From Verrucomicrobiota bacterium (GTDB lineage Bacteria; Verrucomicrobiota; Kiritimatiellia; JAHIZV01), in the NCBI GenBank assembly GCA_018814445.1, contig JAHIZV010000237.1:49729-113728 (forward strand): a stretch of DNA of 64,000 nucleotides, written 5' to 3'. A program made the translations under genes and the position numbers. The notes below the pieces were generated by a model. That model saw only the letters and a list, made by a program, of their open reading frames with translations, was not told the DNA's origin and did no database searches. Position 1 is the first letter of the stretch. Every line of letters starts with the position of its first letter. Positions 20,729 through 64,000 of the stretch are shown here, piece by piece.

Positions 20729-20744
20729 ACAAGCCTCCTTAGCC

Positions 20745-20790
20745 TCCACGGCTAATATTTTATTAGACTCTTTTTCGTTCAGGAATACAA
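20745..20790 (-). promoter_or_regulatory. Candidate σ70-type promoter for the giant-protein cluster
   Basis: On the minus strand: TTGTAT (revcomp of 20775-20780), 17 bp spacer, TCTAAT (revcomp of 20752-20757). It sits in an AT-rich stretch about 25 nt upstream of the AAGGAGG RBS. Confidence 0.25.
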
Positions 20791-20838
20791 GAACCGGGAG
20801 GAACAATTCCCACATGTCCCCATAGAACTCCTGTCATC

Positions 20839-23644: not shown

Positions 23645-23816
23645 CCGTCAGAATTCCAGGCTGGTAGACCTGTAGCCACCTTAGAGGATGCAGAGGAGAA
23701 GTGATAGCCCGGATGCAGAAAGAAGGAGTTGACCCGGACCGTCTTCGGCGCAGACTTCCAATGCTTGGAACTTTTTCTCAGAAAACTTCCAAGGTATGGA
23801 AGTTTCCGGGTACGAT

Positions 23817-41747: not shown

Positions 41748-41903
41748 CTCATGATCTCTTTACTTCGATTTTGCGGCCTCTTATATTAGAAAGGTAGTTC
41801 TCATTTTTGCGATTCAATAAAGCTGTTCCGGGGCGAATCTTACAGCAGGCGTATTTGGGGTACAGGTCAATGATGTTACTCCTTCTTGCGCATAGGGTAT
41901 AGC

Positions 41904-45565: not shown

Positions 45566-48500
45566 CTAGAACGAGCCGGCTTCGTAGTATTCCCACACGA
45601 TTCGATACAACCTGCGCTCACGGTTTGTGGACTCGACATCCTGATAGAAGAAGTCGCCGCCGATGTCCGAGAGGAAGTTGGCATCCTGATTCACGCCCGG
45701 GCCATCCATGGCATTGGACCACGTGGTACTGTTTTCAGAATACTGCACCTGGTATATCTCATCCCATGCTCCCCGCCACTTGATCTGGCGGAGGCCGCTG
45801 GCCTTCTTGATTTCAGAGATGGCGAACTCACCGAAGAAAAGCGCCGCACGGTTGTCGTTCGTATCCACGTAAACGACTCCGTTTGTCTCGCCGATGAACC
45901 TCCACCACGCTTTGTAGGAGTTGTGACTCGGCGTCGGCTGCCAGATGATATACTCTTGATAGACATCCACAGCGGTGTCCAGGTCGATCCACGAATCACC
46001 GTCATCGCCGGAGTACTGAATCCGGACTTTGAGATTTGTGGGTATATTGACGGCACTCCATATAAGCGGCCACGTGCTGTTGGTTTCACTGATTTTGACG
46101 GAGTTGTTCCACGTGCGAACATACTGAATCACATTCGTGTTGCTCTTGCTCGCGTAGATCGTGTTCCCGTACGCACCCATGTTGACCCGATTCGCATTTG
46201 TTTCCGGTTCATCGGCGTAGTCCGAATCAGGATTACCCTTGTCGAGAGCCCACGCGTCACTCGTATCACTGGTCACCCAGCCAACTCCGTCAACGTATCG
46301 TCCGCCACGCGATTTGAGATGGAAGTCCCCGCCCGTCGCATCTGCAATGCCGGCGTTGGTGAGGGCGCTTCGATAGTCGTGCCCTACGGCGAGCTGCCAG
46401 GGCAGGAGTTGCTTGTAGGAACTGCCATCCTTGAAGATGAAGGCATTTGTTTGAAGATCATACACGTTGTAGTCGATGAAGACATTGAAGGGCGTTCCCC
46501 CAACAGCCGCCACCGATCCCGTGCTGTGGTTGAACTGGAAGATGTTATTCTGTATGACACCGTTCACGCTGCCGTTATAGACATGATACTCGGGGCGGCC
46601 GGCGAAGGTGTTGTTCTCGATTGTGAAGTCACTGCCCGAAAACACCCTGACTCCCCTGCCCCAGTTATTCCAGAACCGGCCGTTCCTCACTGCAAGCGTC
46701 GTGCTATTCGACGCTACAACGGCGACACGATTGCTGACGAAAAGGAGCCCTTCCAACGTGGCGTTTTCGCTGTAGTCGAGACTCACGGCCGCTCTCGCAT
46801 TTCGCAACGCCAGATCCTGAAAGGTGACGCGCGAGCCGAATATCTTCAACCCGACTCCAGTGGACGTGTTCTGACGGTCCAGCACGGCGCCTCCGGCGGC
46901 GAAATTTGTACTGCCTCTGACCATAACGTCACCATAGTCATCATCACCCCCGTCGGACCATATAAAGGTCGTCGCGGTCGGAAGAGTGTAGACGCCGGTG
47001 TCGATGTAGACCGTATCGCTTCCTTCCATGTCATATGTATCGAGTACCCGCTGGAGCGAATCCATCGGTGTCGCCGGAGTCAGACCATCCGCAAATGCAG
47101 AGCCAATATCCGTGGCGAATACGTCGTTGTTGGTAGAGCCGTCGTTCACATAGAACTTGCGGATGTCGTTTCTCACTGCAAAGATGTTATCGACTTCGTC
47201 GAATATGTTCGTATCTGAATCAAGCACGACACGCCAGAGAGCGAATACACTGGATGTCACCAGCGTTGTATCCCACGAATACTGATTGGTGCTACTGAGA
47301 ACTCCGAAGGCGAACGAAGTCCAGGTCAACCCGTTGTTCGGAGAGTAGTCGAGCCTCAGTGTGTCACCTCCACCCAGGTTACCTGACCTCCACCAAATCG
47401 TGTTTGTGCCCTTGAGAACGCCGCCATCGTTAATGGTCACGGCCAACAGCCATTTATTTGTCAGGCTTTTGCTCGCTTCACTCGTATTGCCATACGCGCC
47501 GATGTTAATCCGTGGGCCTCTTGGCGTCAGTTCGTTCGTGTACACGGAATCGGGATCACCGGCATCGATGAGCGGCGAATGTTGAGCATCGACAACAAAG
47601 CTTCCTCCGGAATATCGCCCTTCTATGCTTTTAGGGTGGAAATCTCCTCCCGCCTCGCTGGCGAATAGCGGCTCGTGCGAAAGGCTGTGCTCTTCCAACC
47701 CTGACTCTCGCTGCCAGTAGATTAGTTTTTCCCAGTTTCCGTTTACGATGCCATTCTTATTCCCTATCCAGGCGTTGTTGCGGGCAATCAAGTTGTTGTA
47801 ATCGGAGGACAGACTCCCCGCGGCCAGCAACACGCAGAACTTGTCTGTACCATCCGCAATGACAACGCTGTTCTTCATCGTCACACTCGACAACCCCCGC
47901 TGGATGAGCTGTGACGCACCCGAAATCTTGAGAGTCGCATTCCTCAATCCCACGTTTTGACTGTTGATGACGTGAACAGCCACCGTATCAGACCCGTAAA
48001 CCAACGCATTCCGGATATCGATCAGGAGGCAGCTCTGCAGGTCAATGTGGCCATTCTTGAGATGGACGCCTCGAATTGTCGCATTTGTAGTCGCCCCGAT
48101 TTCCAGATCTCCGCCATTGACCATGAGATTGTTGATCGTCTTTCCCGTACCCGATATCTTGACCGTCCCGTTTGTGACCGTGATGTTGTTCAGAACGGTG
48201 CCGTTGGCCTCGCCGACCAGATTGCCGCCGTCCAGATACATGTCGGAAACGGTGATGTACGAACCTTGAAGTTTCCAGAAGTCGCTGCTTCCGGCATCGT
48301 TCTTGAACACGGAAGGTACTTCTCCGGTGCTTCCCTGAACAACGACCGGAATACCGGCGAGTCCTTGATCGGCAACCGTGTGCAGAATCTTCTCGCCTAC
48401 ATTGTAGTATCCGGCATCGACCAGAATCGTGTCCCCTTCAGCCACAAGCCACTGCTCCAGAACATCCGACATGGAATCGAGCGGCGCAAACGCAAAGATC

Positions 48501-51500
48501 CCCAGGTTGCTGGCCGAGCCTGTTGTTGTCGTATAGATATCACCGTTGGTGGAGCTGTCATTAAGGTAGTAGAAGAACGGCCGGTTTCGCAGGGAGAACC
48601 TGGAATCCGTCATATCCTCGACGTTCGTATCGCTGTTGAGGACAATCCTCCACCGTCCAAGCCGGCTGGAAGGCCACTTCTCATTGCCGGTCTCCTCTGT
48701 GTCACTGATCCAGGCATACTCTCTGTCTCCAATGGCCACATTATTCGCGATTGAGGTCCATGTAATGCCGTTGTCGTAGGAGTAGTCCAAACTCACCTTG
48801 TTTGTCGCGGGAATAGCCGCGCTTCCCCATACCAGCAGAAACGTCCCCTCCAATTGACCGCCGCCCGACGCCGTAATGGCATACACCCACGCGTTCGTGC
48901 GGCTCATGCTCGCTTCACCGGTGTTGCCGTAAAGACCGATATTCCTCCGGCTCCCATTCGGCGCCGGCTCCCTCGAGTATGGAAACGTTGGATTCGCCGT
49001 ATCGATCAGGAATGAGGTGTTCGTATCGCCGGTGACATGGTTCGTCACGGCAGGATCAAACCGGCCGACCTCACTGACCAGATGGAAATCTCCGCCCGCT
49101 GCGTCATAGAATCCCGGGTTGACGGTCAGACTGTGCGTATCCTGGCCGGAAACCTTTGTCCATTGCGGCAAGCCTTTATATTCGACGCCATTGAAGTAGA
49201 CATAGGTTGCACCATTCTGAATATACAGATCGTTGTAGTCCGCTTTTATCGTGGTGTTCGTATTGAGAGTGTAGCAGAAGGATTCAGGTGCGCGGGCATG
49301 CACAACGGAGTGCCTGACCTCGATATTTCCAAGATTGGCCGCCACGGCGTCGGCCGTGTTGGACCAGAATACGCATGAGTAGAAACGATTCGACGTTGAG
49401 GTGATAGAGCCCACTCCACTTTTCTTGCCGGAGACAAGAATGTAGTCGAAATTGTTGTGAGACGCCTGCGACAATGCGATTCCCGAGCCGTTGCCACCTG
49501 TGATGCTGAGATTGCTGGCCACACAGTAGCTTGCCTGAAAGAGTCGGACGCCGTTCGTACCGCCGTCGATGACAAAATCGGACAGCTCGATATACGCGGT
49601 CACATTCAGATTAAACATCGCCGACCCGGAGAAGTTCGACGACGGTTGGAAAACAGTTCCCCCGGCCGCCAGGTTCGTGCTGCCGAGCATTCTCACGCGC
49701 CCGGCGGCAGTTCCCTTATCACCGGACGTAACAAGCACCTCGTTCGTCAGGGGGTAGACTCCTGTGTCGACAAGGATCTTATCTCCCGCGAGAAGCTTGT
49801 ACTGGTCAAGGACCGCAGAGATGCTGCACATCGGAAATGCCGGGCTGGTACCGGGGTTGCCGCAGTTACCAACCGACAACGCATATATATCTCCGTTAGT
49901 CGAGTTGTCATTCACGTAGAAGATGAAGGGGCCGCACCGAACGAACAGATCCGTGCCCGATACGTCGATAATGTTCGTATCGCTCTCGCTTACCACACGC
50001 CAGCGCCCAATGGGAGTCGAAGGCACGATGCATGGATCCAAAGTCACGCCCGTACTGAATACCGATGTGTTCGTGGCGAGCGCCTCAGACCAACTCAATC
50101 CGCCGTCGGTCGAGAACTGCACCTTGACTTTGTCTGAAGGCGTGAAGCCACGGCTTAGCCAGTAGAGAGTCACGGCCTCACCTATGCTTCCTCCGTCGTC
50201 GAGAGACACAGCGAGAAATTCCTTGTTGGTGGGCGACTTACTCGCCTCGCTCGTTCCTCCATAGATACCCAGGTTCGCACGGAAACCATTCGGACTGGGT
50301 TCATTCGCGTAGGGCGAAGTGAAGTTGGCAGCATCGATCGCCCAGGACGAAATGGTATCGTTTGTGAAGGAATCTGTTAGCGGCTCATACCTGCCCGCCG
50401 TGCTTCTGAGGTGGAAATCACCGTTCGTTGGATTGACAAACAGAGGATCACCCAGACGGGAATGGTAATCTGCGCTGCGGTCAGTCTGCCAGTCGAGCAA
50501 CGTTTCGTATTCAATCTTCTTGAATGTGTCATTCGCAAGCTTGCTGACTTTATCCGGATGCAGAAGGTTGTAGTCGCCGCTCACCGAACCCGCCTGCCCG
50601 TAAACATAGATGTAGGTACCCGTCTGGTAGGCGTGAAGTATCGAGTTATTCACCGTCAAGCCGGCACGAACTGACACCGCCCCATTGCGGTTGGACCAGA
50701 TGACACAGTGGTTCATGGCCAGGGGCTGAGAATGACTGACACCGTAACCGTTGTTATCCCACGAAGCGCAATGTTCAAAGACCAGCCCCTGATTCAGACC
50801 GAAGCTGAACCCGTTTGAAGAGTTCCCGTAGCTTTCAATCCAACTGAGCTGGCAGCCCTCGGTGCCGGACATCGCGACACCGATGCTGGCGCCCGTAAAT
50901 CGAATGTGATCCATCTCAATGAAACGTGTTTCGGTGACCTGGAGCCCGTATCTTGTCAGATTCGTTCCGGCCCTGTGAATCACCGTTCCGCCGCAGCCTG
51001 CTGAGTTGTTCGTACTGCCATGGATCATGATCGGGAAGTTGGATGATCCTCGGGAAAGGGCGCCGATGACCCAATCATTCGAGATCATGTAGGTGCCGGT
51101 GTCTATGTAGATCGTGTCTCCCTCCCGAATACTGAAGTTCTGGAAGGCGGTAACCGGGCTGTCCAAAGGTGACGAAGGATCCAGGCCTGAGTTACCCGGA
51201 TCGCCCGGGGCCGTGGCGAATACATCGCAGTTGGTGTCACTGTCGTTGATGTAGATCGTGATAGGATTGTTCCGAATGGAAAAGCTGTCATCAACAGCGT
51301 CCCAGGTATTCGTATAGTCCTCAAGCACTACTCTCCACTTCGCGGCAGACACGGCGGGTTGACTGGAAACATTCCACGTCTGCTCTCCAAGCGAGGCAAG
51401 TTGGTTCGTCCTGAATATGGTCCATTCGACGCCGTTGTTCAGCGAGTACTCAAGTCGGACCGTGTCATCCGTTGCTATTCCGCCGGCAGCCCAGGTCAGG

Positions 51501-54500: not shown

Positions 54501-57500
54501 CGGGAGAGCGTCTGGTAAATGGTATCAGGTGAGCCCGGAGTGTACAGTCCGGCATAAGCTCCGTTCGTCAGGAACACGCAGTTGTAGTCTGAAGACAGAT
54601 CGGCCTGACTCGAATTGATGACATAGGCATAGTCACCGGCTCCGGACACGCCGATAACGCTGTTGGACATGAACAAGTCGGCATTGCCCATTTCAACGCC
54701 GATCGCGTTGAACCAGATCACTCCATTCTCCCATATCGCGTCCGATGTCGTGATGCTGAGTCCTGCGTCACTCGCGCTTCTGGCCACACAATGCCGCATG
54801 ACACAACCATCTGACTGCTGCATGTAGAAGCCATTCTCAGACGAATTCGCTGTGACCCATTCCAGCAGGACGTTGTCAGCAAGGTTCAGGCTGACGCCAT
54901 TCTTGCCTCCAACCACGGTGACATTACGAATGTTGACGCCGTCTATGCCGTTCAGATAGAAGCCGTGAGAGACAGAGGAGAGCTGATTGAATACCGTTCC
55001 TGAAGAGGCCGTATTCGTACTTCCCTGAATCGTGATCGGCTCCGCCGGCGTGCCATCGTCAAACTGATCGATTGTGACGGCCTGGTTGAGGGTGTAAGTA
55101 CCCGTATCCACATAAACCGTATCGCCCTCTTCCAGGTCGTAGCGGGTGAGAAGATTGATGAGCGACGCCATAGGCGACGATGCAGTGACTCCCGTGTTTG
55201 TCGCATGCCCCAGGGCCGTGGCATAGACATCACCGTTGGTCGTGACGCTATCGTTGACATAGAATAAAAGCGGTTCATTTCTCAAGGCAAAGGTTCTATC
55301 TGTCGCGTCATAGAGGTTTGTGTCGCTGTCGCTCACGACGCGCCACATACCCAGTGCGGAGGACTGGAATTGGGTCGTTCCCCATGAGTAACATCCAAGA
55401 TCGGCATCGACCCCGGTCACGATCGAGGTCCAGCTGACGCCGCCATCGGCCGAGTACTCAAGCGAGACAGTATCGCCCGTAACACTTCCAATAGCCCGCC
55501 AGCAGATATCCTGAACTCCTTCCGTCCGCCCCCCGTCGTTCAGCGATACTGCGATAAGGAACGAGTCGGCTTCATTGGTCGGCGAAAGGCTTGCCTCCGT
55601 TGTGTTGCCGAACATACCGATATTGACGCGGGAGCCGTTCGGCAACGGCTCATTTGTGAATGCGGATGCGGGATTTCCGCTGTCGATCAGCACCGAGGTC
55701 AAAAGATCGTTCGTGTAGACGCCCGTAGAAGGATCGTATCTTCCCTCCACGCTCGCGGGATGGAAGTCACCACTCGATGAGTCAGCGAATCGCGGGTCGT
55801 GACTGAGACTGTGTTTGTCCTGATGGAAGTCCCTGACCCAGCGTGACACCGTTTGGAAGACCTGGTCGGGCGAGGCATTGCTGCTGCCCGCATAAGCTCC
55901 GTTCGTCAGGAAGATGTTGTTGTAGTCGGACACCAGATTTCCGGAAGCGAAGTAGTAGGCATAGCGCCCGGAACCAGAAGCGAAGATCAGCGTGTTTTCT
56001 ACGGACAGATCTCCCTCACCGTCAGGATTCGACTGCTCCCAGACTCCGTAGGCATTATTCCACAACACGCCATGGGTCCAAGTAACATTGGTCGAATTAC
56101 CTCCGTGATAAAAACCCCAGCTTGAGCAATCGATTGCCGACGAGCGGCTGAAATCCACATTGTGCGATTTCTTTACTTCGAACCCGCGGACACAGTCTAC
56201 GGCCTGCACTGCATCCACGGTGACAAAATGGGCCTCTTCCAGCTCGAAGGCAGTGGAAGCGTTTGAAACGGTGATATTCCTGAACTCATAGCCCTGAACC
56301 GTATCGAGATGGAAGCCGTATGACTGAATCACAGATCCTCCCGCGCCGGCATTCGTACTGCCCTGCACCAGGATCCTGTTGGTCGCACTGCCCGTGTCGA
56401 ACGTTCCGATTTCGATGACTCCGGACTCAGGGAACTTACCTGTGTCGATGAATACATTGTCGCCCGGCTCCAGGTCATAGTTGTTGAAGACGGTCCGCAC
56501 ACTCAATGCCGGTTCCGAAGGTGAGACACCCGCGAATGCACCGGATCCCGCGGCACTGCAAAATACGTCTCCGTTGGTGGAACCGTCATTCACATAGAAA
56601 GAAAGTGGCTCGTTCCTCAACGCGAACGAGATATCCGTGTCGTCAAAGACCGAGGACTGCTCACTCGCGACACGCCACATCCCGCGAGCGGTTGACGGGT
56701 AATTTGTCGAGTTCCAGTAGTAGACCCCGTTTGTCGCAGGAATGTTAGTTGCCACGGTCAAGAATGATGCTACCGCATCAGTAGAGAAACGAATCGCAAC
56801 CGTATCAGCAATTGAAGCGCCCCCGGCAATCCAGTACAGGGGGACGTTTGTTCCTTCGGTCCTGCCTCCATCGTTAAACGACACGGCAACGAACCATCCG
56901 TTTGTCGGAGTAATACTCGCTTCCGCCGAACCACCGTACTGCCCTATGTTTCTACGCCCGGCATTGTTCGGAGGTTCATTGGAGAAGGATGCCTCAATGG
57001 CTCCCGCATCGAGCAGGACAGACGTTTCCGTGTCGAAGACCGTCCCGGCAGTCGTGTATCTTCCGCCCTGGCTCTTCGGATGGAAGTCCACAGCGGATCC
57101 CAACGTCAGTTTGGGATTATGCGATAACGTGTGAAGGTCGTTGCCGGATGAACGCGCCCACAAAGACACACTGGGTTCAATCACTCCAGTGGGCGCACGG
57201 TACGCGACGTATGCACTGTTCTTCAAGTGGTAGTCGTTGTAATCCCCGTACACGTTCCCGGAATTGATATAGTGAGCGTATCGTCCAGTCCCAAACGCGC
57301 CTATCACACTATTGCTAAAGGTCAGTTTTCCGCCGTTCAGATATACACCGTACAGATTCGACCACAACACACCGCTATCCCAGAAGGCCGACGTGTTATT
57401 GGTGGTAAAGATCGACAGCCCCGCTTTGCTGGCTTCCGATGCCGAGCAGTGGTCGAACATCGTGTTGGTGGCAGCGTGGACTCTGTAGCCAACGACACCG

Positions 57501-60500
57501 TCTTTCACGTTCACCCACTCGGCTCCGCAGTCTGCCGTTCCGTAGAAGAGCAGACCGGTCGTGGTATTCTCAATCGTCAGATGCTTTATCCTTATGCTGG
57601 ATGTGTTTCGAACAGTGATTCCGCGCTTCCCGCTTCCTCCATCCAGCACAGTCGCGCGTCCGAGCGGCGAATTCGCGCCTTGTATGACGATGGGGTTCGT
57701 CGCCACTCCGACAAGATCACTGGCAATGGCCAGATCGTCTGAGAGGATATACGTTCCGCTGTCGACCAGTATGACTTCGCCGGCCCTTATGCTGTATCTG
57801 TCAAAGACCTGCTGAATAGTCGCGAGCGGTTTATTGCTGGTCACGCCGCTGTTCAGAATACTCCCGGGAGCTTTCGTGTAGACATCGCCGTTCGTCGAGG
57901 AATCGTTCACAAAATACGTGAGCGGCTCGTTATTGATGATGAAGGTCACGTTGCTGAGAACGGGCGAGATGCCGAAGGTGTTCGTGTCCGTATTGCTGAC
58001 GATCCGCCATTTGGCCTCGGGAACGGATGCGAAGGGAGTCGAGTCGAACAGATAGGAACGCACACCCTTCGGAATATTCGTACTGATGTTGGTCCAGCTT
58101 TGACCCGCATCCACAGACAGTTGAAAAGAGAAGCTGTCATTTGTGGCGGTTCCGCCGGCGACCCAGTAGAAGTAGTTCGACCCGCGGAATGTGCCGCCGT
58201 CATTGAGCGTGAGGGCCAGCAACCAACCGTTCGTGCGGCTTAAACTGGCCTCCGAATGGTTCGCGTACAGACCGATATTTGCCCGACGGCCATTCGGCGA
58301 AAGTTCGCGAGCGTAGCTGTCCGCAGGATTCCCCACATCAATCATGGGCGAGGTGACCAGGTCATTCGTTCGCACGCTTGAGCCCGGAACAAAACGCCCT
58401 GCCGCACTCATCGGATGAAAATCGCCCGTTGTCAGATTAGGGAAAAGAGGTTCGTGCGTAAGACTCTGCACGTCTTGCCCCTTCTCCTTGGTCCACGTGT
58501 ACATATTGGCATAACGGTCGCTGCCGAACTTGGCGATCTCGGCAAAATTCTTGGCGAGGATATTGTTGTAGTTCGCCGAATAATCGACTGATCCGCCGAG
58601 GTCGTATGCATAGCGCTCCGTGCCATTGACTAGAACAACAGAATTGCTGAGCCCTATGCTGCCCGCGTTGGCATAAAGGCCCCCGGAAGTATTCGACCAT
58701 ATCACCGAACGGTTGATACGAATCCTGTCGGAACCCGCGGCCCTTATGCCGTAGCCTGCATTCTTCCACGAAAGCACCCGGGAAAGACTCATATTCGTGC
58801 TCGTGTTCAGATCCACACCGTGCGATGCATTGTTCATGGTGCGAATGTTATCGATGTTAATCTGATTTGCGCGGGCGAAGCGCATACCCACATTCGCGTT
58901 CCGCAGAACCAGATTTGAGACGGAAACCAGCGTCGGGGTATCAAACTCAAAAACATACGCTCCGGCGGAGGTGTTGCCGCGATCGAGAACCGATGCCCCG
59001 GAATTTAGATTAGTCGTACCGAATATGCGGACTCGCGCGTTGGTGGCACCGCTGTCGAGGAGTGTGACAACGATATTGGAGCCGTTTGTGTAGACGCCTG
59101 CATCGACATAGACCTTGTCGTTCGGCTCGAGATCATAGGCGGCAAGGGCCGTGGCCAGGGAGTTCAGAGGCTTGGCGGAAGTAGCGACCCAGTTTGTCGG
59201 CGATCCGTTCCCGGTTGTATATTGATCCCCAACCCCCGAGGCATCGTCAATGTAGATACTCAGATTGCCGTTGCGCACGGCAAAGAAGCCGGGTGTCCGG
59301 TCAAAAATGTTTGTGTCGCTGTCGCTGGTAGCCCGCCAGAGGGCCGCAGGCGTATTGCTTACGCTCAACGTATTCCACGCGACAGTCTCATCTGCCGCAT
59401 CCACTCCGTTGTTCAACTCAAACCAAGTGTTTCCGCCATCCACAGACACATCTACTGTGACGGTGATCCCGGTGTCGATGTTCGCGGCAACCCAGTGAAA
59501 CGCCGCCGTGCCTGCCACCCATCCGCCGGAGCGAGGCGAGGCCGCGTGCAGCCACGCATTCGTAACACCTTTGCTGGCTTGGTCCGTATTCCCGTAGAGC
59601 CCGATATTGACCCTTCCCCCATTGAAAGAAGGCTCAGAAGAAAAGGAAGCAGAGGGATTGCCGCTGTCTATCAGCAAAGAGGTCACGGCATCGTTTGTTA
59701 CATAACCTTGGCCCCATACGTACCGCCCCATGGGAGTTACTGTCTTCAGATGAAAATCACCGGTGAGGGGAGCGGCGAACCTGGGATTGACACTCAGGCT
59801 ACGCTTGTCGGAGCCGGTTCGGCTGATCCATGCCGCAAGGGTGTCCTGGTTTCTCTGCTGGCTGACTATATAGCCGACAGCGGCGTTGCTCTCGGCATAC
59901 AGATCGTTGTAGTTGCCGACAATGTTGGTCAGCGTTCCCGCCTGATAACAGCGCGCTTTATGTCCCGACGCCACGACAATGCTGTTGCTGACACCGACAG
60001 AACCGCTGTTGGCCCTGATGCCGGCCGCCCCGTTCCGCCAGATCACATTTCGATCGACGCGCACATTGGAGGAACTGCGCACCCACACGCCGTTGGTCTT
60101 GCTGAGCTGTGTTATGCACCGATGAAGCAAGACATCGGAACTATTCTGAATGTCAAAACCTATGCCGTTGTTTGAGAACGCTTCGACTTCTTTCAGCTCG
60201 ACTTTGTTGGCATTGTAGACTCGGATGCCTCCCGCTCCCCCGGTCGCCCGGATGTTGGAAACACGCACGTAGTTGGCTCCGGAAATGTCTATCGCGTATG
60301 CGCCCCCGACGCCACTGGTACGGTTGAGCACGGTGCCTCCCGCAGCCCTGTTCGTACTGCCGATGATCCGGACGTGGTTGTTCGAATTGCCGGCGTCCGT
60401 GGAGTCAATGACCGTATTGGCCGTCAGATTGAATGTGCCCGTATCGACATAGATAAGATCCTCACCCTCCAGATCGTAAGCGTCCAATATTGCCTTGATG

Positions 60501-63292
60501 GTGGCCTTCGGGCTGCCGACGTCCGTGCCGAGATTGGAATCGTTACCGGGAGCAGTCGTATAGACATCGCCGTTGGTGGAGGAGTCGTTCACGTAATAAA
60601 CGAACGGCCCGTTTTTGAAGAAGAATGTCGCGTCAGTCGCATCGTACACGTTCGTGTTCGATTCAAGCACCACCCTGTACTTGGCATTGGTCGATGAGAA
60701 GAAGTTCGTGTTCGCCCAAGTGTATGTACCTACGGACGCCAGAATATTCGTTTGAACAATCTTCCATGTCTGTCCGTTGTCACGCGTCAGTTCGATGCGG
60801 ACGGTTGATCCGGTAGCGATTTCGCCTGCATTCCAATACACCGCATCGCCCGGCACACTGAGCGTGCCCCGGTCATTATAGGTGAGAGCCAGGAGCCACG
60901 CATTTGTTCGGCTCTTACTCGCCTCGCTGGTACCGCCGAACGCCGACGCATTCAGCCGACTGCCGTTGGGCGAAGGCTCATTTGTATAGGCCGTCGAAGC
61001 GGAACTGCCGAAATCTATCAAAGGCGAGTAGTTTGTGTCGGTCGTTACGAACGCACCTGTCGCAGGATTAAAACGGCCGGAGGGACTGAGAACGTGAAAA
61101 TCAAGCGTCGCGGGGCTCTTGTAATGTGGATTGATCACACTGCTGCGCCACCACCCCCCCTGGCTCTTCTGAAACTCCGCAAAATCGCTGAATCCGGACT
61201 TAACCACCGTTTTCCAGAAGAGACTGTGATCGCCCTTCGGGGTCGTGGATCCGCTGAAAGCCGTGCCGCCCGCCACCACGCTGTTACTGACAGAAAGGGG
61301 GTTACTGCCACCGGTCACGTCAAAGGCAATCGTGTTGCTCCAACTGACGCCATTCTCCCAGGTCCAGCCGTCGTTGCTGATGGAACGCAGGCCGCGCGTG
61401 TTGTTAATCGTAAAACATCCTCTGAAACTGATGTCGTCAGATGCTGAATCCGCCTCGAAACCCGAGGTGTTCTTATACGCGAGAAACCGTTCGAACTCGC
61501 AGTAGGCGCTATCCGTGATCTCCACGGCATATCGGCCGTCCGCCGCCGTGATGTGCTCCAAGCGAACATAGTCGGCGTCATTGATGTTGAATACATTGAT
61601 ACCCGTATTGCCCGTGCGGAATACGGTTCCCGTCAGGGAACTGTTTGTACTACCCCGAATGGTCATGGGGTTGCCGGGCTCACCACGATCCGCAAACGTG
61701 ATCGTGACGGGACTCGGCAGGGTGAAGCGTGCCGTATCGACCAGAATTTCGTCACCGCCGCCAAGGTCGTAGTTATCGAGGACCGTCTGTACGCTATTCA
61801 GCGGATTGGACGAACTGAGACCGTCATTTGCCGGACTGCCAACTGCTGAGGTATACACGTCACCAAGAGTACTGCCATCATTTACATATACGGAGAAGCC
61901 ATGGCCCGGGCTGCGCAGTGTGAAGATAGAGTCACACGCGTCGGCAATATTCGTATCTGCCTCATGCACCACACGCCACTTGGCTTCCAGACTGGAAACA
62001 AGACCCGTCGTGACAATAGTATAGTAATCGCTGGTCACCGGCACACCCGAGGCAAGAGTCGCCCACTGACTGCCGGCGTCCTTTGAGTACTCAATGCGAA
62101 CGGTCGATCCGTTGGTGAAGTTATTGTTGGCCCAGTACACGCGGCCGGTGCCGTTCAAAGTGCCGCCGTCGTTGTAAGTGAGAGCAAGCAGCCACGCGTT
62201 GGTCCGGCCTTTGCTGGCCTGCGGAGTATTGCCGTAACGCCCGATGTTGAGTCGATTCGTCTGCGGCTCATTGACGGCGCTTGCTGACCGAGCTCCGAGG
62301 TCGATGAGCAGAGAGGTTACCGTGTCGGTGGCAAACGTTCCCGAAACCGGATTATAACGGCCATACTGACTTTTTAGATGAAAGTCCGCGTTTGTTAGGT
62401 TTCCGGGATTGTAGAAATTCGGTTGAATGCTGGAACTGTGCCGAAATTCGCCCGTCTGTTTCTGCAATTCACTCAGGAAGGCATACGGACCTCCAGAACC
62501 TGAGCTCATGATCGTCGTCTTCCAGAAAATATTGTAATCGCCCGAGGGCTGTGCGGTGCCGGAAAAGGCAGTGCCTCCCATAATAACGGTATTGCTGACG
62601 GGCGTCGCGAGAGCGAACTGGAATGCCGTCACGTTACTCCAGCAGACGGAGCTCTGCAGGCTCCCGCCCACCCGATCATTGCGGAATCCCAGGGTGTTCC
62701 GAGAGAACACGGACCTCGCAACCGTATTGTAGCCGCCGGCTATGATTTCCATTCCGCTCGTATTCGATCGCAGAGTCAGCCGTTGAAATGCGTTGGACTG
62801 GCTCTGTATCAGTACGCCGACCCGAGACTGCGAGATGGTCAGATCCTCCAGGTTGATATGGTTCGCACCTGTCTCGAGTCGGATCGCATCGGCGGCAATA
62901 CTGTTCCGGCGAATGATGCTTCCCCCAGCTAAAAGATTCGTACTCCCCCGCAACGTTACCGGATTGCCACCAGCCCCTTTGTCAGGGGAGGTTATCGAGA
63001 TTGTGTAGTTAGAGTAGATCCCCGTATCGATATAGACCACATCGCCCGGCTCAAGGTCATAGGACGCAAGAATATTGGTCACGGTGCGCATCGGGGTGAG
63101 AGAATTGGTTCCCCGGCCGGGAATATCCAGACCGCCCGCCGCCGTATAGACATCGCCGTTCGTGCTGGAGTCGTTTACGAAGTAATTGGCCCCCTCGACC
63201 GGCAGAACTGCCGGGAGAAACGCGGCGATGAGTGCTATCAGAATGTAGTCTCTAAGTCTCATAACTCCACAAAAAACAACCATGCCGAGCAT
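45566..63292 (-). CDS. Giant (5908 aa) secreted protein of 13 tandem right-handed β-helix-type modules, each followed by a β-sandwich segment; C-terminal FN3-like domain
   Basis: Single uninterrupted 17.7-kb ORF. N-terminal signal sequence (MRLRDYILIALIAAFLPAVLPVEGA). 13 recurrences of the module start Y[YF]VNDSSTNGDVYTxAxG...P...T...A...YDLxxGDxIYVDTGxY, each followed by Asn-ladder β-helix-like segments (NVRVDRNVIWRNGAAGIRANSGSVGVSNS). Module ends carry GDFHLKS...NIGxYGNTxEASKSxTN...WRVVSxSDTN. C-terminus ...RLYRIVWEYYEAGSF. Confidence 0.8.
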   Translation of the reverse strand: MLGMVVFCGVMRLRDYILIALIAAFLPAVLPVEGANYFVNDSSTNGDVYTAAGGLDIPGRGTNSLTPMRTVTNILASYDLEPGDVVYIDTGIYSNYTISITSPDKGAGGNPVTLRGSTNLLAGGSIIRRNSIAADAIRLETGANHINLEDLTISQSRVGVLIQSQSNAFQRLTLRSNTSGMEIIAGGYNTVARSVFSRNTLGFRNDRVGGSLQSSVCWSNVTAFQFALATPVSNTVIMGGTAFSGTAQPSGDYNIFWKTTIMSSGSGGPYAFLSELQKQTGEFRHSSSIQPNFYNPGNLTNADFHLKSQYGRYNPVSGTFATDTVTSLLIDLGARSASAVNEPQTNRLNIGRYGNTPQASKGRTNAWLLALTYNDGGTLNGTGRVYWANNNFTNGSTVRIEYSKDAGSQWATLASGVPVTSDYYTIVTTGLVSSLEAKWRVVHEADTNIADACDSIFTLRSPGHGFSVYVNDGSTLGDVYTSAVGSPANDGLSSSNPLNSVQTVLDNYDLGGGDEILVDTARFTLPSPVTITFADRGEPGNPMTIRGSTNSSLTGTVFRTGNTGINVFNINDADYVRLEHITAADGRYAVEITDSAYCEFERFLAYKNTSGFEADSASDDISFRGCFTINNTRGLRSISNDGWTWENGVSWSNTIAFDVTGGSNPLSVSNSVVAGGTAFSGSTTPKGDHSLFWKTVVKSGFSDFAEFQKSQGGWWRSSVINPHYKSPATLDFHVLSPSGRFNPATGAFVTTDTNYSPLIDFGSSASTAYTNEPSPNGSRLNASAFGGTSEASKSRTNAWLLALTYNDRGTLSVPGDAVYWNAGEIATGSTVRIELTRDNGQTWKIVQTNILASVGTYTWANTNFFSSTNAKYRVVLESNTNVYDATDATFFFKNGPFVYYVNDSSTNGDVYTTAPGNDSNLGTDVGSPKATIKAILDAYDLEGEDLIYVDTGTFNLTANTVIDSTDAGNSNNHVRIIGSTNRAAGGTVLNRTSGVGGAYAIDISGANYVRVSNIRATGGAGGIRVYNANKVELKEVEAFSNNGIGFDIQNSSDVLLHRCITQLSKTNGVWVRSSSNVRVDRNVIWRNGAAGIRANSGSVGVSNSIVVASGHKARCYQAGTLTNIVGNYNDLYAESNAAVGYIVSQQRNQDTLAAWISRTGSDKRSLSVNPRFAAPLTGDFHLKTVTPMGRYVWGQGYVTNDAVTSLLIDSGNPSASFSSEPSFNGGRVNIGLYGNTDQASKGVTNAWLHAASPRSGGWVAGTAAFHWVAANIDTGITVTVDVSVDGGNTWFELNNGVDAADETVAWNTLSVSNTPAALWRATSDSDTNIFDRTPGFFAVRNGNLSIYIDDASGVGDQYTTGNGSPTNWVATSAKPLNSLATALAAYDLEPNDKVYVDAGVYTNGSNIVVTLLDSGATNARVRIFGTTNLNSGASVLDRGNTSAGAYVFEFDTPTLVSVSNLVLRNANVGMRFARANQINIDNIRTMNNASHGVDLNTSTNMSLSRVLSWKNAGYGIRAAGSDRIRINRSVIWSNTSGGLYANAGSIGLSNSVVLVNGTERYAYDLGGSVDYSANYNNILAKNFAEIAKFGSDRYANMYTWTKEKGQDVQSLTHEPLFPNLTTGDFHPMSAAGRFVPGSSVRTNDLVTSPMIDVGNPADSYARELSPNGRRANIGLYANHSEASLSRTNGWLLALTLNDGGTFRGSNYFYWVAGGTATNDSFSFQLSVDAGQSWTNISTNIPKGVRSYLFDSTPFASVPEAKWRIVSNTDTNTFGISPVLSNVTFIINNEPLTYFVNDSSTNGDVYTKAPGSILNSGVTSNKPLATIQQVFDRYSIRAGEVILVDSGTYILSDDLAIASDLVGVATNPIVIQGANSPLGRATVLDGGSGKRGITVRNTSSIRIKHLTIENTTTGLLFYGTADCGAEWVNVKDGVVGYRVHAATNTMFDHCSASEASKAGLSIFTTNNTSAFWDSGVLWSNLYGVYLNGGKLTFSNSVIGAFGTGRYAHYINSGNVYGDYNDYHLKNSAYVAYRAPTGVIEPSVSLWARSSGNDLHTLSHNPKLTLGSAVDFHPKSQGGRYTTAGTVFDTETSVLLDAGAIEASFSNEPPNNAGRRNIGQYGGSAEASITPTNGWFVAVSFNDGGRTEGTNVPLYWIAGGASIADTVAIRFSTDAVASFLTVATNIPATNGVYYWNSTNYPSTARGMWRVASEQSSVFDDTDISFALRNEPLSFYVNDGSTNGDVFCSAAGSGAFAGVSPSEPALSVRTVFNNYDLEPGDNVFIDTGKFPESGVIEIGTFDTGSATNRILVQGSTNAGAGGSVIQSYGFHLDTVQGYEFRNITVSNASTAFELEEAHFVTVDAVQAVDCVRGFEVKKSHNVDFSRSSAIDCSSWGFYHGGNSTNVTWTHGVLWNNAYGVWEQSNPDGEGDLSVENTLIFASGSGRYAYYFASGNLVSDYNNIFLTNGAYAGSSNASPDQVFQTVSRWVRDFHQDKHSLSHDPRFADSSSGDFHPASVEGRYDPSTGVYTNDLLTSVLIDSGNPASAFTNEPLPNGSRVNIGMFGNTTEASLSPTNEADSFLIAVSLNDGGRTEGVQDICWRAIGSVTGDTVSLEYSADGGVSWTSIVTGVDADLGCYSWGTTQFQSSALGMWRVVSDSDTNLYDATDRTFALRNEPLLFYVNDSVTTNGDVYATALGHATNTGVTASSPMASLINLLTRYDLEEGDTVYVDTGTYTLNQAVTIDQFDDGTPAEPITIQGSTNTASSGTVFNQLSSVSHGFYLNGIDGVNIRNVTVVGGKNGVSLNLADNVLLEWVTANSSENGFYMQQSDGCVMRHCVARSASDAGLSITTSDAIWENGVIWFNAIGVEMGNADLFMSNSVIGVSGAGDYAYVINSSQADLSSDYNCVFLTNGAYAGLYTPGSPDTIYQTLSRWVRDYGEDAHSYGGDPRFTSAPAGDFHLKSKGGRYVPATKSYTNDTVNSPLLDGGRPGSAYSAEPPPNGAWLNVGLYGNSGEASLTTTNEANSGLTAVSLNDGGRVEGTNLIYWWVSGPVTGHNVSIEYSPDFGLNWTTVVASIAATNRQLLWDTTLVESSIFGRWKVGSTTDTNIFDMTEKPFAVRNDPLSFYVNDSISQAGDVYTEALGNSTNHGFSTDQPKLSIQAIIDTYDLEPGDTIYVDTGNYLLSQEILIDEFDGGTPSERVTIQGSTNDVSKTVLVRFGSGYGVHLDEADGIGFRDLVIRSAEAGIWVYKSDDCLAEWVMCDGGEIGIWIDRSSRFTMNHCIAFENSDAGFFADQSYGVTWDHGVMWKNTHGAKQESGTLGFGNSIIVADGSDQFAYLHVSGTMTADYNNIYLENGAQAGAVLGGFAGSGTTRYATVSAWVSELGYDEHSLAVDPQFTDGENADFHISSPAGRYDISSSVFITNSLESPSRLLDAGNPASSYAQEPLFNGGRLNIGLFGNTDQASKTPTNAWIQPITFDTGGFGEDQITLRWTAGGDATGHTVTIDFSGDAGMTWSNLTSGVSASFGEYLWDSTGYSSTPVGLWRISSEDQAGLTETNGAFFGLRNGGLIKYYVNDGASAGDVFTLGLGDDDNLGYTPLAPKESLQAILNAYDLQPGDIVYVDTGEYDVDTDITIDDLDSGSTNNPVIIQGSTNISTTGTVFDRQLGTGSVSAIHLYRVADVELRDLKLKNGGDGLKMTRSRARGVNVKSHNNGANGFLLDQFSVGTFDRCFSYDNGLNGVSTEGALNWNQGVVWNNKNAASIEQGLGTFRHSVLQASGSGSRIYDMGIGGSVTSDYNNLVRTNGAIVAEKEKFTGGNDLYETLIFWSDGTGQDENSLSHKPLFANTVSGDFHPKSVTGRRSGTNIVQDAQHSPLIDTGDPSAVYTNEPAPRGTRINLGGYGNTYEASMSKTNPWVLAISVNDGGFVKGVVRLTWAAGGIATDDTVRLEYSLNNGVEWTIFRTNQLASLGEQTWNVSSQPAVSAAKWRVVLEDYTNTWDAVDDSFSIRNNPITIYINDSDTNCDVFATAPGDPGNSGLDPSSPLDSPVTAFQNFSIREGDTIYIDTGTYMISNDWVIGALSRGSSNFPIMIHGSTNNSAGCGGTVIHRAGTNLTRYGLQVTETRFIEMDHIRFTGASIGVAMSGTEGCQLSWIESYGNSSNGFSFGLNQGLVFEHCASWDNNGYGVSHSQPLAMNHCVIWSNRNGAVSVRAGLTVNNSILHAYQTGTYIYVYGQAGSVSGDYNLLHPDKVSKLANDTFKKIEYETLLDWQTDRSADYHSRLGDPLFVNPTNGDFHLRSTAGRYEPLTDSFTNDTISSWAIDAANFTSPYANEPSPNGFRANLGIYGGTSEASKSPTNKEFLAVSLDDGGSIGEAVTLYWLSRGFTPSDKVKVQFSTDGGLSWSEALATNTSVFSTGVTLDPCIVPSTPIGRWRVVSESDTNIIDVSGTDLFVRCGPFIFYVNDNSTNGDIYALSVGNCGNPGTSPAFPMCSISAVLDQYKLLAGDKILVDTGVYPLTNEVLVTSGDKGTAAGRVRMLGSTNLAAGGTVFQPSSNFSGSAMFNLNVTAYIELSDFVIDGGTNGVRLFQASYCVASNLSITGGNGSGIALSQASHNNFDYILVSGKKSGVGSITSTSNRFYSCVFWSNTADAVAANLGNIEVRHSVVHARAPESFCYTLNTNTTIKADYNDLYIQNGATYVYFNGVEYKGLPQWTKVSGQDTHSLTVNPGFYDAAGGDFHLVSEVGRFDPAVTNHVTGDTNTSFLIDTANPTFPYSREPAPNGSRRNIGLYGNTGEASMSRTNAWVYAITASGGGQLEGTFLLVWGSAAIPATNKVSLDYSYDNGITWTSIANNVAIGDREYAWISDTEETGNEKWPSSRLGRWRIVLNSDTNVEDMTDSRFSLRNRPFFYYLNDSSTNGDIYTTTTGSASNLGIFAFAPLDSMSDVLEQWLVAEGDTILVDAGYYNVGEKILHTVADQGLAGIPVVVQGSTGEVPSVFKNDAGSSDFWKLQGSYITVSDMYLDGGNLVGEANGTVLNNITVTNGTVKISGTGKTINNLMVNGGDLEIGATTNATIRGVHLKNGHIDLQSCLLIDIRNALVYGSDTVAVHVINSQNVGLRNATLKISGASQLIQRGLSSVTMKNSVVIADGTDKFCVLLAAGSLSSDYNNLIARNNAWIGNKNGIVNGNWEKLIYWQRESGLEEHSLSHEPLFASEAGGDFHPKSIEGRYSGGSFVVDAQHSPLIDAGDPDSVYTNELTPRGPRINIGAYGNTSEASKSLTNKWLLAVTINDGGVLKGTNTIWWRSGNLGGGDTLRLDYSPNNGLTWTSFAFGVLSSTNQYSWDTTLVTSSVFALWRVVLDSDTNIFDEVDNIFAVRNDIRKFYVNDGSTNNDVFATDIGSAFADGLTPATPMDSLQRVLDTYDMEGSDTVYIDTGVYTLPTATTFIWSDGGDDDYGDVMVRGSTNFAAGGAVLDRQNTSTGVGLKIFGSRVTFQDLALRNARAAVSLDYSENATLEGLLFVSNRVAVVASNSTTLAVRNGRFWNNWGRGVRVFSGSDFTIENNTFAGRPEYHVYNGSVNGVIQNNIFQFNHSTGSVAAVGGTPFNVFIDYNVYDLQTNAFIFKDGSSYKQLLPWQLAVGHDYRSALTNAGIADATGGDFHLKSRGGRYVDGVGWVTSDTSDAWALDKGNPDSDYADEPETNANRVNMGAYGNTIYASKSNTNVIQYVRTWNNSVKISETNSTWPLIWSAVNIPTNLKVRIQYSGDDGDSWIDLDTAVDVYQEYIIWQPTPSHNSYKAWWRFIGETNGVVYVDTNDNRAALFFGEFAISEIKKASGLRQIKWRGAWDEIYQVQYSENSTTWSNAMDGPGVNQDANFLSDIGGDFFYQDVESTNRERRLYRIVWEYYEAGSF

Positions 63293-63516
63293 TAACCGCT
63301 TCAGCCTGCACCTAAACTACACCTTCGAGGAAGCTGCCTGCGACCCCTCTACGTCTAATCTGTCAATAGTTAGCATACAACATTTGAGAATATCCGTTAA
63401 CATTGCAAATGAAAACATACCTGTTTTCGGGGGCTTTTCCATGGGTCCGGCAACTGTCGGCAGGTCTCGATCTTGCATTGCCAAACGGAAGTTTCACGGG
63501 TACAAATCTGAGTCCG

Positions 63517-64000
63517 ATGCGGGAAACTACCATTTCAGTGCTGCAAAAGCGTTTCGGAGAGATCCTGCGGGGGCTTTTTCTCGTGCTTTCCGTGGCGGCA
63601 CTGGCAACTTCTGTTGTGTGGAAATTCGCCCCGCAGGCGATCGAATGCGTTGATCGGGCCGTCGTCCTCCGCCATCTCGATCGTTTTGAGAAACGTCTGC
63701 TGGCAGCGCGTCAACTGGTGGAATCCGATGAAAAGGCGGCCGCGGCCGCCTACGAGGCGATACTTCTGGATCTTAAGGAAATCAAGAAAGGCGACCGGCT
63801 CGGAAGGAAGAAACGGGAGGCGCTGAACGAACTCTCTCTTGTCCTGTCGACAGCAGGCAAAACAGACCGGGCTCTTTCCGTCTGTGAAGAATGGGTGGAA
63901 TTCGATGATCGGGACTTGATCCCGAAAATCCACAAAGCCGACCTCTTGCTTCGAGGACAGAACACGAGAGTCGAGGGCGAAGAGTACCTGATGTCCCTCG
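63517..64000 (+). CDS. Hypothetical membrane-anchored protein with helical/TPR-like repeats (partial, continues beyond window)
   Basis: ATG at 63517. Frame open to the window end with coding-like GC3-rich codons. TM helix ILRGLFLVLSVAALATSVVW, followed by a helical Ala/Glu/Lys-rich sequence. Preferred over the antisense 132-aa ORF 63535..63933. Confidence 0.4.
   Translation, partial: MRETTISVLQKRFGEILRGLFLVLSVAALATSVVWKFAPQAIECVDRAVVLRHLDRFEKRLLAARQLVESDEKAAAAAYEAILLDLKEIKKGDRLGRKKREALNELSLVLSTAGKTDRALSVCEEWVEFDDRDLIPKIHKADLLLRGQNTRVEGEEYLMSL

What the first reader, a model, noticed from the sequence alone, without database searches (positions are those of the whole stretch)
45566..63292. 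Single 5908-aa ORF of 13 tandem, roughly 450-aa β-helix modules
This is one of the largest bacterial ORF sizes and is uninterrupted over 17.7 kb. Thirteen modules each begin with Y[YF]VNDSSTNGDVYTxAxG...YDLxxGDxIYVDTGxY, the N-terminal cap motif typical of right-handed parallel β-helix (pectate-lyase-like, NosD-like) domains. Each ends with a conserved β-sandwich-like segment (...NIGxYGNTxEASKSxTN...WRVVSxSDTN). The modules are diverged at DNA level, with no long exact repeats, which argues for an old, stably maintained array rather than an assembly artefact. The likely role is a surface fibre, adhesin or polysaccharide-binding scaffold. It is convergent with the Calx-β protein and divergent from a TPR-like membrane protein.
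Basis: partly seen in the sequence, partly recalled or inferred. Interest (0 to 1): 0.6.

Follow-up and report, generated by a model that had tools for sequence, protein, structure and literature searches.

The report
Conserved 13-module giant beta-helix protein
The 17.7-kb gene is real and encodes a secreted 633-kDa protein made of 13 ancient, position-specific beta-helix-plus-Ig-like modules; it belongs to an unstudied but widespread family in Kiritimatiellia-type (PVC) bacteria and most likely forms a non-enzymatic, sugar-associated surface fibre.

Summary

The protein is not unique. An exhaustive search found about 35 cluster representatives of 5400-6400 aa with 12-14 modules, and 55 loci in Kiritimatiellia, Verrucomicrobiota and Lentisphaerota MAGs. 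These carry only generic annotation. Across proteins, 77% of best module matches fall at the same position (chance 8%), so the array is ancestral.

The helix body is the least conserved region and carries no conserved acid/base cluster. This argues against 13 lyase active sites.

In 21 of 28 related loci, GT2 glycosyltransferase genes lie upstream of the giant gene. The window ends 708 bp upstream, so this cannot be checked here.

Best reading: a secreted, non-catalytic, glycan-associated fibre or scaffold (confidence about 0.5). The function is inferred, not shown. The "one of the largest ORFs" claim is overstated.

The parts
45566..63292 (-). Giant ORF, 5908 aa, 633 kDa, pI 4.7. The only hydrophobic segment is the N-terminal signal.
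63188..63292 (-). Sec-type signal peptide (aa 1-35; an alternative start at M11 gives MRLRD + hydrophobic core + VEGA). Module 1 starts directly after it. All full-length orthologues share this layout.
   Evidence: cleavage site inferred
61892..63184 (-). Module 1 (aa 37-467): beta-helix + post-helix cap + Asp-box beta-sandwich
60599..61891 (-). Module 2 (aa 468-898)
59258..60598 (-). Module 3 (aa 899-1345)
57917..59257 (-). Module 4 (aa 1346-1792)
56600..57916 (-). Module 5 (aa 1793-2231). Modules 5-8 form a more closely related subgroup.
55265..56599 (-). Module 6 (aa 2232-2676)
53924..55264 (-). Module 7 (aa 2677-3123), the module modelled: beta-helix at module residues 49-241, helix 253-260, loop-rich conserved segment about 262-348, beta-sandwich 349-441
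52583..53923 (-). Module 8 (aa 3124-3570)
51257..52582 (-). Module 9 (aa 3571-4012). The only position with several orthologue-conserved charged residues in or near the helix body (R114, D115, R212, D225, E239, D248).
49922..51256 (-). Module 10 (aa 4013-4457)
48572..49921 (-). Module 11 (aa 4458-4907)
47156..48571 (-). Module 12 (aa 4908-5379), the longest, with an extra insertion in the helix
45821..47155 (-). Module 13 (aa 5380-5824), the most divergent paralogue (23-30% to the others) but 95% positionally conserved among orthologues
45569..45820 (-). Family-specific C-terminal domain (aa 5825-5908; WRGAW..YQVQYS..W.NA..GGDF.Y.D..S...R.YRV). It is present at the C-terminus of all complete orthologues and duplicated in a few. 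No Pfam or NCBIfam match. Not found in other ORFs of the window.
41886..45494 (+). Convergent neighbour: 1202-aa LTD + 8x Calx-beta protein. Not found next to the giant gene in related loci, so probably not a functional partner.
63409..64000 (+). Divergent upstream gene, truncated by the window end. It has one hydrophobic helix and no family match.

Best explanation
The gene encodes the local orthologue of an uncharacterised giant-protein family of Kiritimatiellia, Verrucomicrobiota and Lentisphaerota. After Sec export, the 633-kDa chain folds into 13 serial units. Each unit is a short (about 8-9 rung) pectate-lyase-type right-handed beta-helix capped at both ends, joined with almost no linker to an Asp-box Ig-like beta-sandwich. 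The chain ends in a family-specific 84-aa domain. I read it as a long, non-catalytic fibre or scaffold outside the cytoplasmic membrane, roughly 100 nm if extended (inference from rung and domain counts). Its variable helix faces would provide 13 different, position-specific binding surfaces, most likely for glycans. In most relatives it is encoded next to GT2 glycosyltransferases. That suggests it either binds and organises a polysaccharide made by those enzymes or is itself glycosylated. Shown: the architecture, the fold, the signal peptide, family membership, the antiquity and positional orthology of the array, the lack of conserved catalytic clusters, and the GT2 linkage in relatives. Inferred: extracellular location, rod shape, glycan binding, and any link to a specific polysaccharide.
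Against: There is no experimental or localisation evidence. No recognised outer-membrane secretion or anchoring signal was found (no T9SS, PEP-CTERM, LPXTG, autotransporter, TPS or RTX element), so export beyond the periplasm is an assumption. In the window itself no GT2 gene is visible: none in the 45 kb downstream, and only 708 bp upstream. The two-module AF2 model was poor (pLDDT 67, pTM 0.53), so rod-like rigidity is not supported by computation. The closest solved folds are mostly enzymes (PL9, PL6, PL31, GH, epimerases). Conservation was judged on sequence alignments, not on a structural superposition, so a small or shifted active site could be missed. Module 9 does carry several conserved charged residues.
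Confidence: 0.5

Rival explanations
1. It is a multi-enzyme: 13 different polysaccharide lyase, hydrolase or epimerase modules on one chain, a secreted 'assembly line' for degrading or remodelling complex, possibly sulfated, polysaccharides. This would fit the glycan-degrading lifestyle known for Kiritimatiellota.
Against: For every module position, the helix body is the least conserved part among 21 orthologues and lacks the conserved acidic/basic clusters that PL and GH beta-helix enzymes need. The AlgE catalytic motif YG(F/I)DPH(D/E) is absent. No CAZy-type catalytic family was matched by Pfam or NCBIfam; only generic Beta_helix and NosD matched. The neighbours in related loci are biosynthetic glycosyltransferases, not sulfatases or degradative enzymes.
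Confidence: 0.2
2. It is a cell-envelope structural glycoprotein that stays cell-bound, either S-layer-like or a periplasmic/envelope scaffold. It would be glycosylated after export with lipid-linked sugars made by the adjacent GT2 enzymes, and its fixed 13-module length would act as a spacer or ruler.
For: Module number and length are almost constant across lineages diverged to about 40% identity. The downstream GT2 in L040 and L054-type loci most resembles polyprenyl-phosphate-sugar synthases such as AglJ (S-layer glycoprotein glycosylation), ArnC and PpgS, all below cut-off. The protein is rich in Ser, Thr and Asn (27%). No outer-membrane secretion signal was found.
Against: There is no S-layer, SLH or anchoring domain. 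The number of N-glycosylation sequons (93) equals the composition expectation (88). The GT2 similarity is below the curated cut-offs. Nothing here shows glycosylation or lattice formation.
Confidence: 0.2
3. It is an assembly artefact: a collapsed, expanded or chimeric repeat array, or a pseudogene read through by chance.
For: Repetitive genes are prone to misassembly, and the same organism is only fragmentarily assembled elsewhere (7-kb Logan contig).
Against: There are no DNA repeats longer than 101 nt, and those present are 60-88% identical. Each of the 13 modules has its own positional orthologue in about 20 independent proteins from NCBI, JGI, ENA and Logan assemblies, some on contigs of 300-600 kb. 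The signal peptide and C-terminal domain are intact. GC content equals that of the surroundings.
Confidence: 0.02

Closest known systems
Unnamed giant 'right-handed parallel beta-helix repeat-containing protein' family of Kiritimatiellia / Verrucomicrobiota / Lentisphaerota MAGs (e.g. HRZ11090.1, 5980 aa; OGV42677.1 fragment)
   Same: Signal peptide + 12-14 (mostly 13) positionally orthologous modules + the same C-terminal domain, at 5400-6400 aa.
   Different: The window protein is only 30-50% identical per module to any of them, and its gene neighbourhood differs: Calx-beta and fab genes instead of visible GT2 genes. None of the family is characterised.
AlgE1-7 secreted mannuronan C5-epimerases of Azotobacter vinelandii (A-module beta-helix + R-modules, repeated)
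   Different: AlgE proteins have at most two A-modules, RTX-type Ca-binding R-modules and T1SS export. The catalytic motif YG(F/I)DPH(D/E) and RTX nonapeptides are absent here. This protein has a Sec signal and Asp-box Ig-like domains.
PL9 / PL6 / PL31 polysaccharide lyases (Pel9A 1ru4, BcAlyPL6 7dmk, 6kfn)
   Different: Sequence identity is 15-16%. No conserved Ca-binding acidic cluster or Lys/Arg base appears in any module position. These are single-domain enzymes, not arrays.
About 6000-aa Sec-secreted tandem CASH beta-helix protein of Ca. Menyafoubacter / PUNC01 (PMC12057145), and giant PVC/Omnitrophota proteins (10.1101/2023.11.21.568195)
   Same: PVC-superphylum, about 6000 aa, signal peptide, no TM helix, tandem beta-helix (CASH) domains, a 'disaggregatase' region hit, and MAG-only evidence.
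   Different: That protein is described with PL6, Rhs, CglD-adhesin, internalin and disordered regions. The present one is a pure 13-fold repeat of one module type. Homology between the two was not tested.
Beta-helix adhesins (S. pneumoniae PfbA; P. aeruginosa CdrA and Bordetella FHA from general knowledge)
   Different: Those are single long helices with LPXTG or two-partner secretion signals. None of these signals is present here.
Giant T9SS-sorted proteins made of about 46 tandem Kre9_KNH / Reelin-subrepeat-B-like Asp-box Ig domains (P0105)
   Same: They carry the same beta-sandwich domain type as the C-terminal part of each module (profile positions 354-435).
   Different: They have no beta-helix modules and carry a Por_Secre_tail. 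This shows the sandwich is an independent stalk-type domain.

Membership tests
Pectate-lyase-like right-handed parallel beta-helix superfamily (Pfam PF13229 Beta_helix / PF05048 NosD-type CASH repeats) | Profile match above the gathering threshold | tested here: met
   PF13229 scores 98.1 and 79.7 bits (cut-off 25.9). PF05048 scores 71.3 and 50.7 bits (cut-off 23.6). Nine of 13 modules match PF13229 individually and 8 match PF05048.
Pectate-lyase-like right-handed parallel beta-helix superfamily | Three-stranded right-handed beta-helix fold | tested here: met
Polysaccharide lyases PL9/PL6/PL1 (catalytic members) | Conserved Ca2+-binding acidic cluster plus a Lys/Arg Bronsted base on the helix face | tested here: not met
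   Among 21 orthologues there are 0-3 conserved charged columns per helix body, mostly the DYN Asp. This is a sequence-based test; no structural superposition output was available.
NosD (nitrous-oxide reductase maturation) | TIGR04247 equivalog-level score and a nos gene context | tested here: not met
   TIGR04247 scores 17.9 bits against a cut-off of 300. No nos genes are in the window.
AlgE-type mannuronan C5-epimerases | Catalytic motif YG(F/I)DPH(D/E) in the helix; RTX nonapeptide R-modules | tested here: not met
   Zero matches to the motif or to DPH[DE]. One chance GGxGxD match in 5908 aa.
Methanosarcina disaggregatase-related proteins (PF08480 Disaggr_assoc) | Full-length match to the family profile | tested here: not met
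   Only profile positions 152-194 of 194 (the shared C-terminal cap element) match, in 5 of 13 modules.
Known surface-sorting / secretion classes (T9SS CTD, PEP-CTERM, LPXTG, autotransporter barrel, TPS domain, T1SS RTX) | Recognisable sorting domain or motif at a terminus | tested here: not met
   No such Pfam or NCBIfam hit on the protein or its last 111 aa. No LPxTG, PEP or RTX motifs. Only a Sec-type signal is seen.
Kiritimatiellia-type 13-module giant beta-helix family (unnamed) | Signal peptide + about 13 positionally orthologous [beta-helix + Asp-box sandwich] modules + conserved C-terminal 85-aa domain | tested here: met
   Window modules 1-4 and 9-13 hit the same-numbered module in most orthologues; modules 5-8 cross-hit within their own group. 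The tail HMM scores E 4.7e-33 at the C-terminus. The signal peptide is aligned with the orthologues.
Asp-box (BNR-motif) Ig-like beta-sandwich (Reelin_subrepeat-B / Kre9_KNH-like) | SxDxGxxW motif in a beta-sandwich; profile match | tested here: inconclusive
   The strict motif is present in 9 of 13 modules, and the sandwich is in the model. PF21471 scores 56.6 and 26.4 bits on the two halves of the protein, but no single stretch passes, and only 3 modules match individually. A clear match is seen in the related repeat protein P0105.

The most novel reading that the evidence does not exclude
The 13 non-interchangeable modules are not just spacers. They would form an ordered extracellular array of 13 distinct glycan-recognition or glycan-processing stations, coupled functionally to the neighbouring membrane GT2 synthase: a fixed-length 'ruler' or template that captures, orders or modifies a nascent exopolysaccharide or envelope glycan. 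That would be a machine type not described for any synthase-dependent polysaccharide system. The segment that is invariant in all 13 modules and all orthologues (DFH...GR...D...EP...N...AS..TN) would then be a ligand or metal site repeated 13 times.
Probability: 0.12. Interest if true: 0.75.

Novelty: new variant of a known kind. Interest (0 to 1): 0.45.

Why it matters
Giant secreted proteins are a hallmark of PVC bacteria, yet almost none has an assigned role. This one is unusually tractable. It is a clean 13-fold repeat of one well-folding module and is conserved in length and module order across many uncultured Kiritimatiellia-type lineages. Each module can be expressed and modelled separately. 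The strict positional orthology, unlike the homogenised repeats of most adhesins, says that each position matters. That makes it a useful model for how long repeat arrays are kept stable and diversified. The recurrent linkage to GT2 glycosyltransferases gives a testable hypothesis about the surface or matrix biology of a phylum known mainly for polysaccharide degradation. If the protein turns out to be enzymatic, it would be a source of 13 or more new carbohydrate-active specificities.

Tried and rejected
1. The word-indexed homologue search with the module profile returned only 9 short proteins, which wrongly suggested rarity. The exhaustive search corrected this: 1611 proteins at E<=1e-30.
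2. The genome scan with the 13-module alignment failed for lack of a conserved stretch. It worked with a 4-sequence alignment.
3. The exact look-up of the window's PlsX found nothing. The organism was traced through RNase G to a 7-kb Logan contig of SRR2540949.
4. BLAST of the window's neighbours (Calx-beta, RsmD, CoaD, PlsX, FabH, the upstream gene, the other giant proteins) against the related loci found no conserved synteny. Functional coupling to Calx-beta or the fab genes is therefore rejected.
5. The two-module AF2 run was meant to test rigidity of the module junction. MAFFT aligned some module pairs out of register (A4, A5), and the model was poor (pLDDT 67, pTM 0.53), so it gives no conclusion.
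6. The profile search with the C-terminal domain, meant to see whether it is a shared sorting signal, gave no hits, not even the family itself. It is uninformative. Locally, the domain occurs only at the ends of family members.
7. The afdb50 fold library was unavailable.
9. No terminator-like or promoter-like sites were found in the convergent 71-bp gap.
10. Literature searches for Kiritimatiell* together with 'parallel beta-helix' or 'giant protein' found no description of this family.

Full report
OBSERVATION. The window contains a single ATG-initiated ORF on the minus strand, 45566..63292, of 5908 codons. Its GC content (0.54-0.56) matches the surrounding chromosome. Motif searches, a MAFFT alignment and an HMM built from it define 13 consecutive modules of 430-472 aa. 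They start at aa 37, 468, 899, 1346, 1793, 2232, 2677, 3124, 3571, 4013, 4458, 4908 and 5380. A 35-aa hydrophobic leader precedes them and an 84-aa tail follows.

Modules are 23-45% identical to each other. At DNA level only 20-101-nt imperfect repeats (60-88% identity) recur at multiples of about 1.33 kb, and TRF reports nothing.

WHAT A MODULE IS. Pfam finds Beta_helix (PF13229; 98 and 80 bits on the two halves of the protein) and NosD-type repeats (PF05048). It also finds the last 43 positions of Disaggr_assoc (PF08480) and sub-threshold Reelin_subrepeat-B. Individually, 9 of 13 modules match PF13229. NCBIfam gives nothing above cut-off; NosD scores 17.9 bits against 300.

An AlphaFold2 model of module 7, built on an alignment of the 13 paralogues plus three homologues, is confident (pLDDT 89.3, pTM 0.88). 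Its parts are:
- an N-terminal cap with one helix;
- about 8-9 three-stranded rungs (residues 49-241);
- a short helix;
- a loop-rich, lower-confidence segment (about 285-348) carrying most of the invariant residues (DFH, GR, D, EP, N, AS, TN);
- a beta-sandwich (349-441).

The sandwich carries an Asp-box (SxDxGxxW) in 9 of 13 modules. It is homologous to a domain that forms about 46 tandem copies in a T9SS-sorted giant protein annotated by Pfam as Kre9_KNH / Reelin_subrepeat-B. So each module is a generic CASH-type beta-helix with both caps plus an Ig-like stalk domain.

THE FAMILY. The word-indexed search found only nine short relatives. The exhaustive HMM search of 1.84 billion cluster representatives found 1611 proteins at E<=1e-30. 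About 35 of these representatives are 5400-6400 aa long with 12-14 full modules. A scan of one genome per GTDB species returned 55 loci. Almost all are Kiritimatiellia, Verrucomicrobiota or Lentisphaerota MAGs, and the ORFs are complete or run off the fetched flanks with 10-13 modules.

NCBI names members only 'right-handed parallel beta-helix repeat-containing protein [Kiritimatiellia bacterium]' or 'hypothetical protein'. Several clusters contain near-identical ~5900-aa copies from independent assemblies, some on contigs of 300-600 kb.

The window's own genome is not among the GTDB representatives. Its RNase G is 100% identical to a gene on a 7-kb Logan contig of SRR2540949 and about 72% identical to proteins of Lentisphaerota and Verrucomicrobiota MAGs. 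All full-length orthologues share a Sec-type signal peptide directly abutting module 1 and the same C-terminal ~85-aa domain (WRGAW..YQVQYS..GGDF.Y.D..R.YRV). In the sequences at hand, that domain is found only at the ends of family members and has no Pfam or NCBIfam match.

AGE AND STABILITY OF THE ARRAY. Window modules 1-4 and 9-13 find their best match at the same ordinal position in most orthologues. Modules 5-8 cross-hit one another. In an all-against-all comparison of 21 thirteen-module proteins, 77% of best cross-protein hits are at the same position, against 7.7% by chance. The figure is 79-99% for positions 2-4 and 9-13, and 42-69% for positions 1 and 5-8. Same-position identity averages 37.6%, against 32.3% for paralogues within one protein.

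The 13-module order therefore predates the divergence of these lineages and has not been homogenised by recombination. Together with the lack of long DNA repeats, this disposes of the assembly-artefact explanation.

ENZYME OR SCAFFOLD? For each of the 13 positions I aligned the 21 orthologues. The helix body (module residues 86-250) is consistently the least conserved region. Its mean major-residue frequency is 0.43, against 0.59 for the N-cap, 0.61 for the post-helix segment and 0.55 for the sandwich. Residues conserved at 90% or more in the body are almost only Gly, Asn, Ser, Trp and the DYN motif.

Columns conserved at 75% or more as acidic, basic or His number 0-3 per module, and most are the DYN Asp. 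Module 9 is the exception with six, and several of those lie at the end of the helix. The AlgE catalytic motif and RTX repeats are absent. Beta-helix lyases, hydrolases and epimerases need conserved clusters of acidic and basic residues on the helix face (established knowledge of PL1/PL6/PL9, GH28 and AlgE). Their absence at every position argues against 13 active sites, although a structural superposition was not available.

The most conserved element, the post-helix segment, overlaps the C-terminal part of PF08480. From memory it resembles the common 'DYHL..SPAIDAG...DIGAYE' tail of CASH-type proteins. That resemblance is a lead, not a test. I regard the segment as a structural cap or junction, but a repeated metal or ligand site is not excluded.

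CONTEXT. In the window the gene is convergent with an LTD + 8x Calx-beta protein. It lies beside rsmD, coaD, yceD, plsX and fabHDGF, with mreBCD, PBP2, rodA and RNase G further on. None of these neighbours accompanies the giant gene in related loci.

Related loci instead show a recurrent association with glycosyltransferases. Of 28 loci with at least 1.5 kb of upstream sequence, 21 carry GT2-type genes upstream, and 12 carry one within 500 bp. These are usually co-oriented, and several are membrane-embedded synthase-like GT2s. Of 8 loci with downstream sequence, 4 have a VanZ-like membrane protein followed by a small GT2. That small GT2 most resembles polyprenyl-phosphate-sugar synthases such as AglJ, ArnC and PpgS, all below cut-off.

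The window ends 708 bp upstream of the start codon, where a divergent gene of unknown family begins. Whether this genome keeps the GT2 linkage cannot be seen.

MECHANISM. Shown:
- a Sec-exported 633-kDa acidic protein (pI 4.7) without other hydrophobic segments;
- 13 serial beta-helix + Ig-like units with almost no linkers;
- position-specific conservation of the modules;
- no conserved catalytic constellation.

Inferred: the units form an elongated fibre outside the cytoplasmic membrane, on the order of 100 nm if extended. Its diversified helix faces would offer 13 distinct binding surfaces. The GT2 linkage suggests either binding and organisation of a self-made polysaccharide, as beta-helix matrix adhesins such as CdrA do (general knowledge), or glycosylation of the protein itself. 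How the protein would cross or attach to the outer membrane is unknown, because no known sorting signal is present. The family-specific C-terminal domain is the obvious candidate. The attempt to test junction rigidity by a two-module model failed (pLDDT 67, pTM 0.53).

COMPARISON AND NOVELTY. Proteins over 5000 aa are comparatively common in PVC phyla, and far larger ones exist (10.1101/2023.11.21.568195; PMC11573180). A ~6000-aa Sec-secreted tandem-CASH protein has been described from another PVC lineage and interpreted as catabolic or predatory (PMC12057145). So size and general type are not new.

I found no description of three things: this specific, widely conserved architecture of 13 positionally orthologous [beta-helix + Asp-box sandwich] modules with its own C-terminal domain; its apparent loss or lack of catalytic residues; and its linkage to GT2 genes. 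I rate it a new variant of a known kind, of moderate interest. The structure call is solid, and the functional assignment is an inference with about 50% confidence.

Noticed in passing
window 3300-20815 (-): An apparent operon of large surface-type proteins. It comprises a 217-aa ORF with no family, a 1704-aa protein (Big_9, CarboxypepD_reg, cadherin-like), a 2552-aa protein (Big_2/5/6/7), and then three ORFs of 510, 452 and 407 aa with no Pfam match. It is a second cluster of giant secreted proteins in the same window.
   Followed up: partly
window 41886-45494 (+): A 1202-aa protein with a lamin-tail domain and 8 Calx-beta domains. It has weak sub-cutoff similarity to the SVAGG GlyGly-CTERM family. 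It is not syntenic with the giant gene in other genomes.
   Followed up: partly
L002, L007, L015, L019, L024, L027, L029, L036, L037, L053 (directly upstream); L035, L040, L043, L052, L054 (downstream): Orthologues of the giant gene are flanked by GT2 glycosyltransferases. These include membrane synthase-like GT2s, and a conserved pair of a VanZ-like membrane protein with a polyprenyl-P-sugar-synthase-like GT2. Multi-TM proteins without any family match (L008 5535-7130 type) also recur.
   Followed up: partly
window 51257-52582 (module 9): This is the only module position with several orthologue-conserved charged residues in or near the helix body (R114, D115, R212, D225, E239, D248 in module numbering). 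It is a possible specific binding or catalytic site.
   Followed up: no
P0105, P0116, P0117, P0130: Proteins of 4100-5400 aa are built of 42-50 tandem copies of the beta-sandwich domain alone. P0105 ends in a T9SS Por_Secre_tail. The sandwich is therefore an independent repeat unit of other giant surface proteins.
   Followed up: partly
P0002 / L001 10001-12454; P0011; L045, P0017: Architectural variants of the family exist. One is a complete 817-aa two-module protein with a signal peptide in another genome. Another is a 14-module, 6371-aa member. Some members carry a duplicated C-terminal domain.
   Followed up: partly
L008 (JBDHVC010000048.1): One locus carrying the giant gene is labelled Sandaracinaceae (Myxococcota), while all others are PVC lineages. 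This is probably a mis-binned contig rather than horizontal transfer.
   Followed up: no
window 23796-25952 (+): A 718-aa protein with an endonuclease/exonuclease/phosphatase domain covering only its first ~330 aa. The same gene sits beside RNase G in the Logan contig of the same organism.
   Followed up: no
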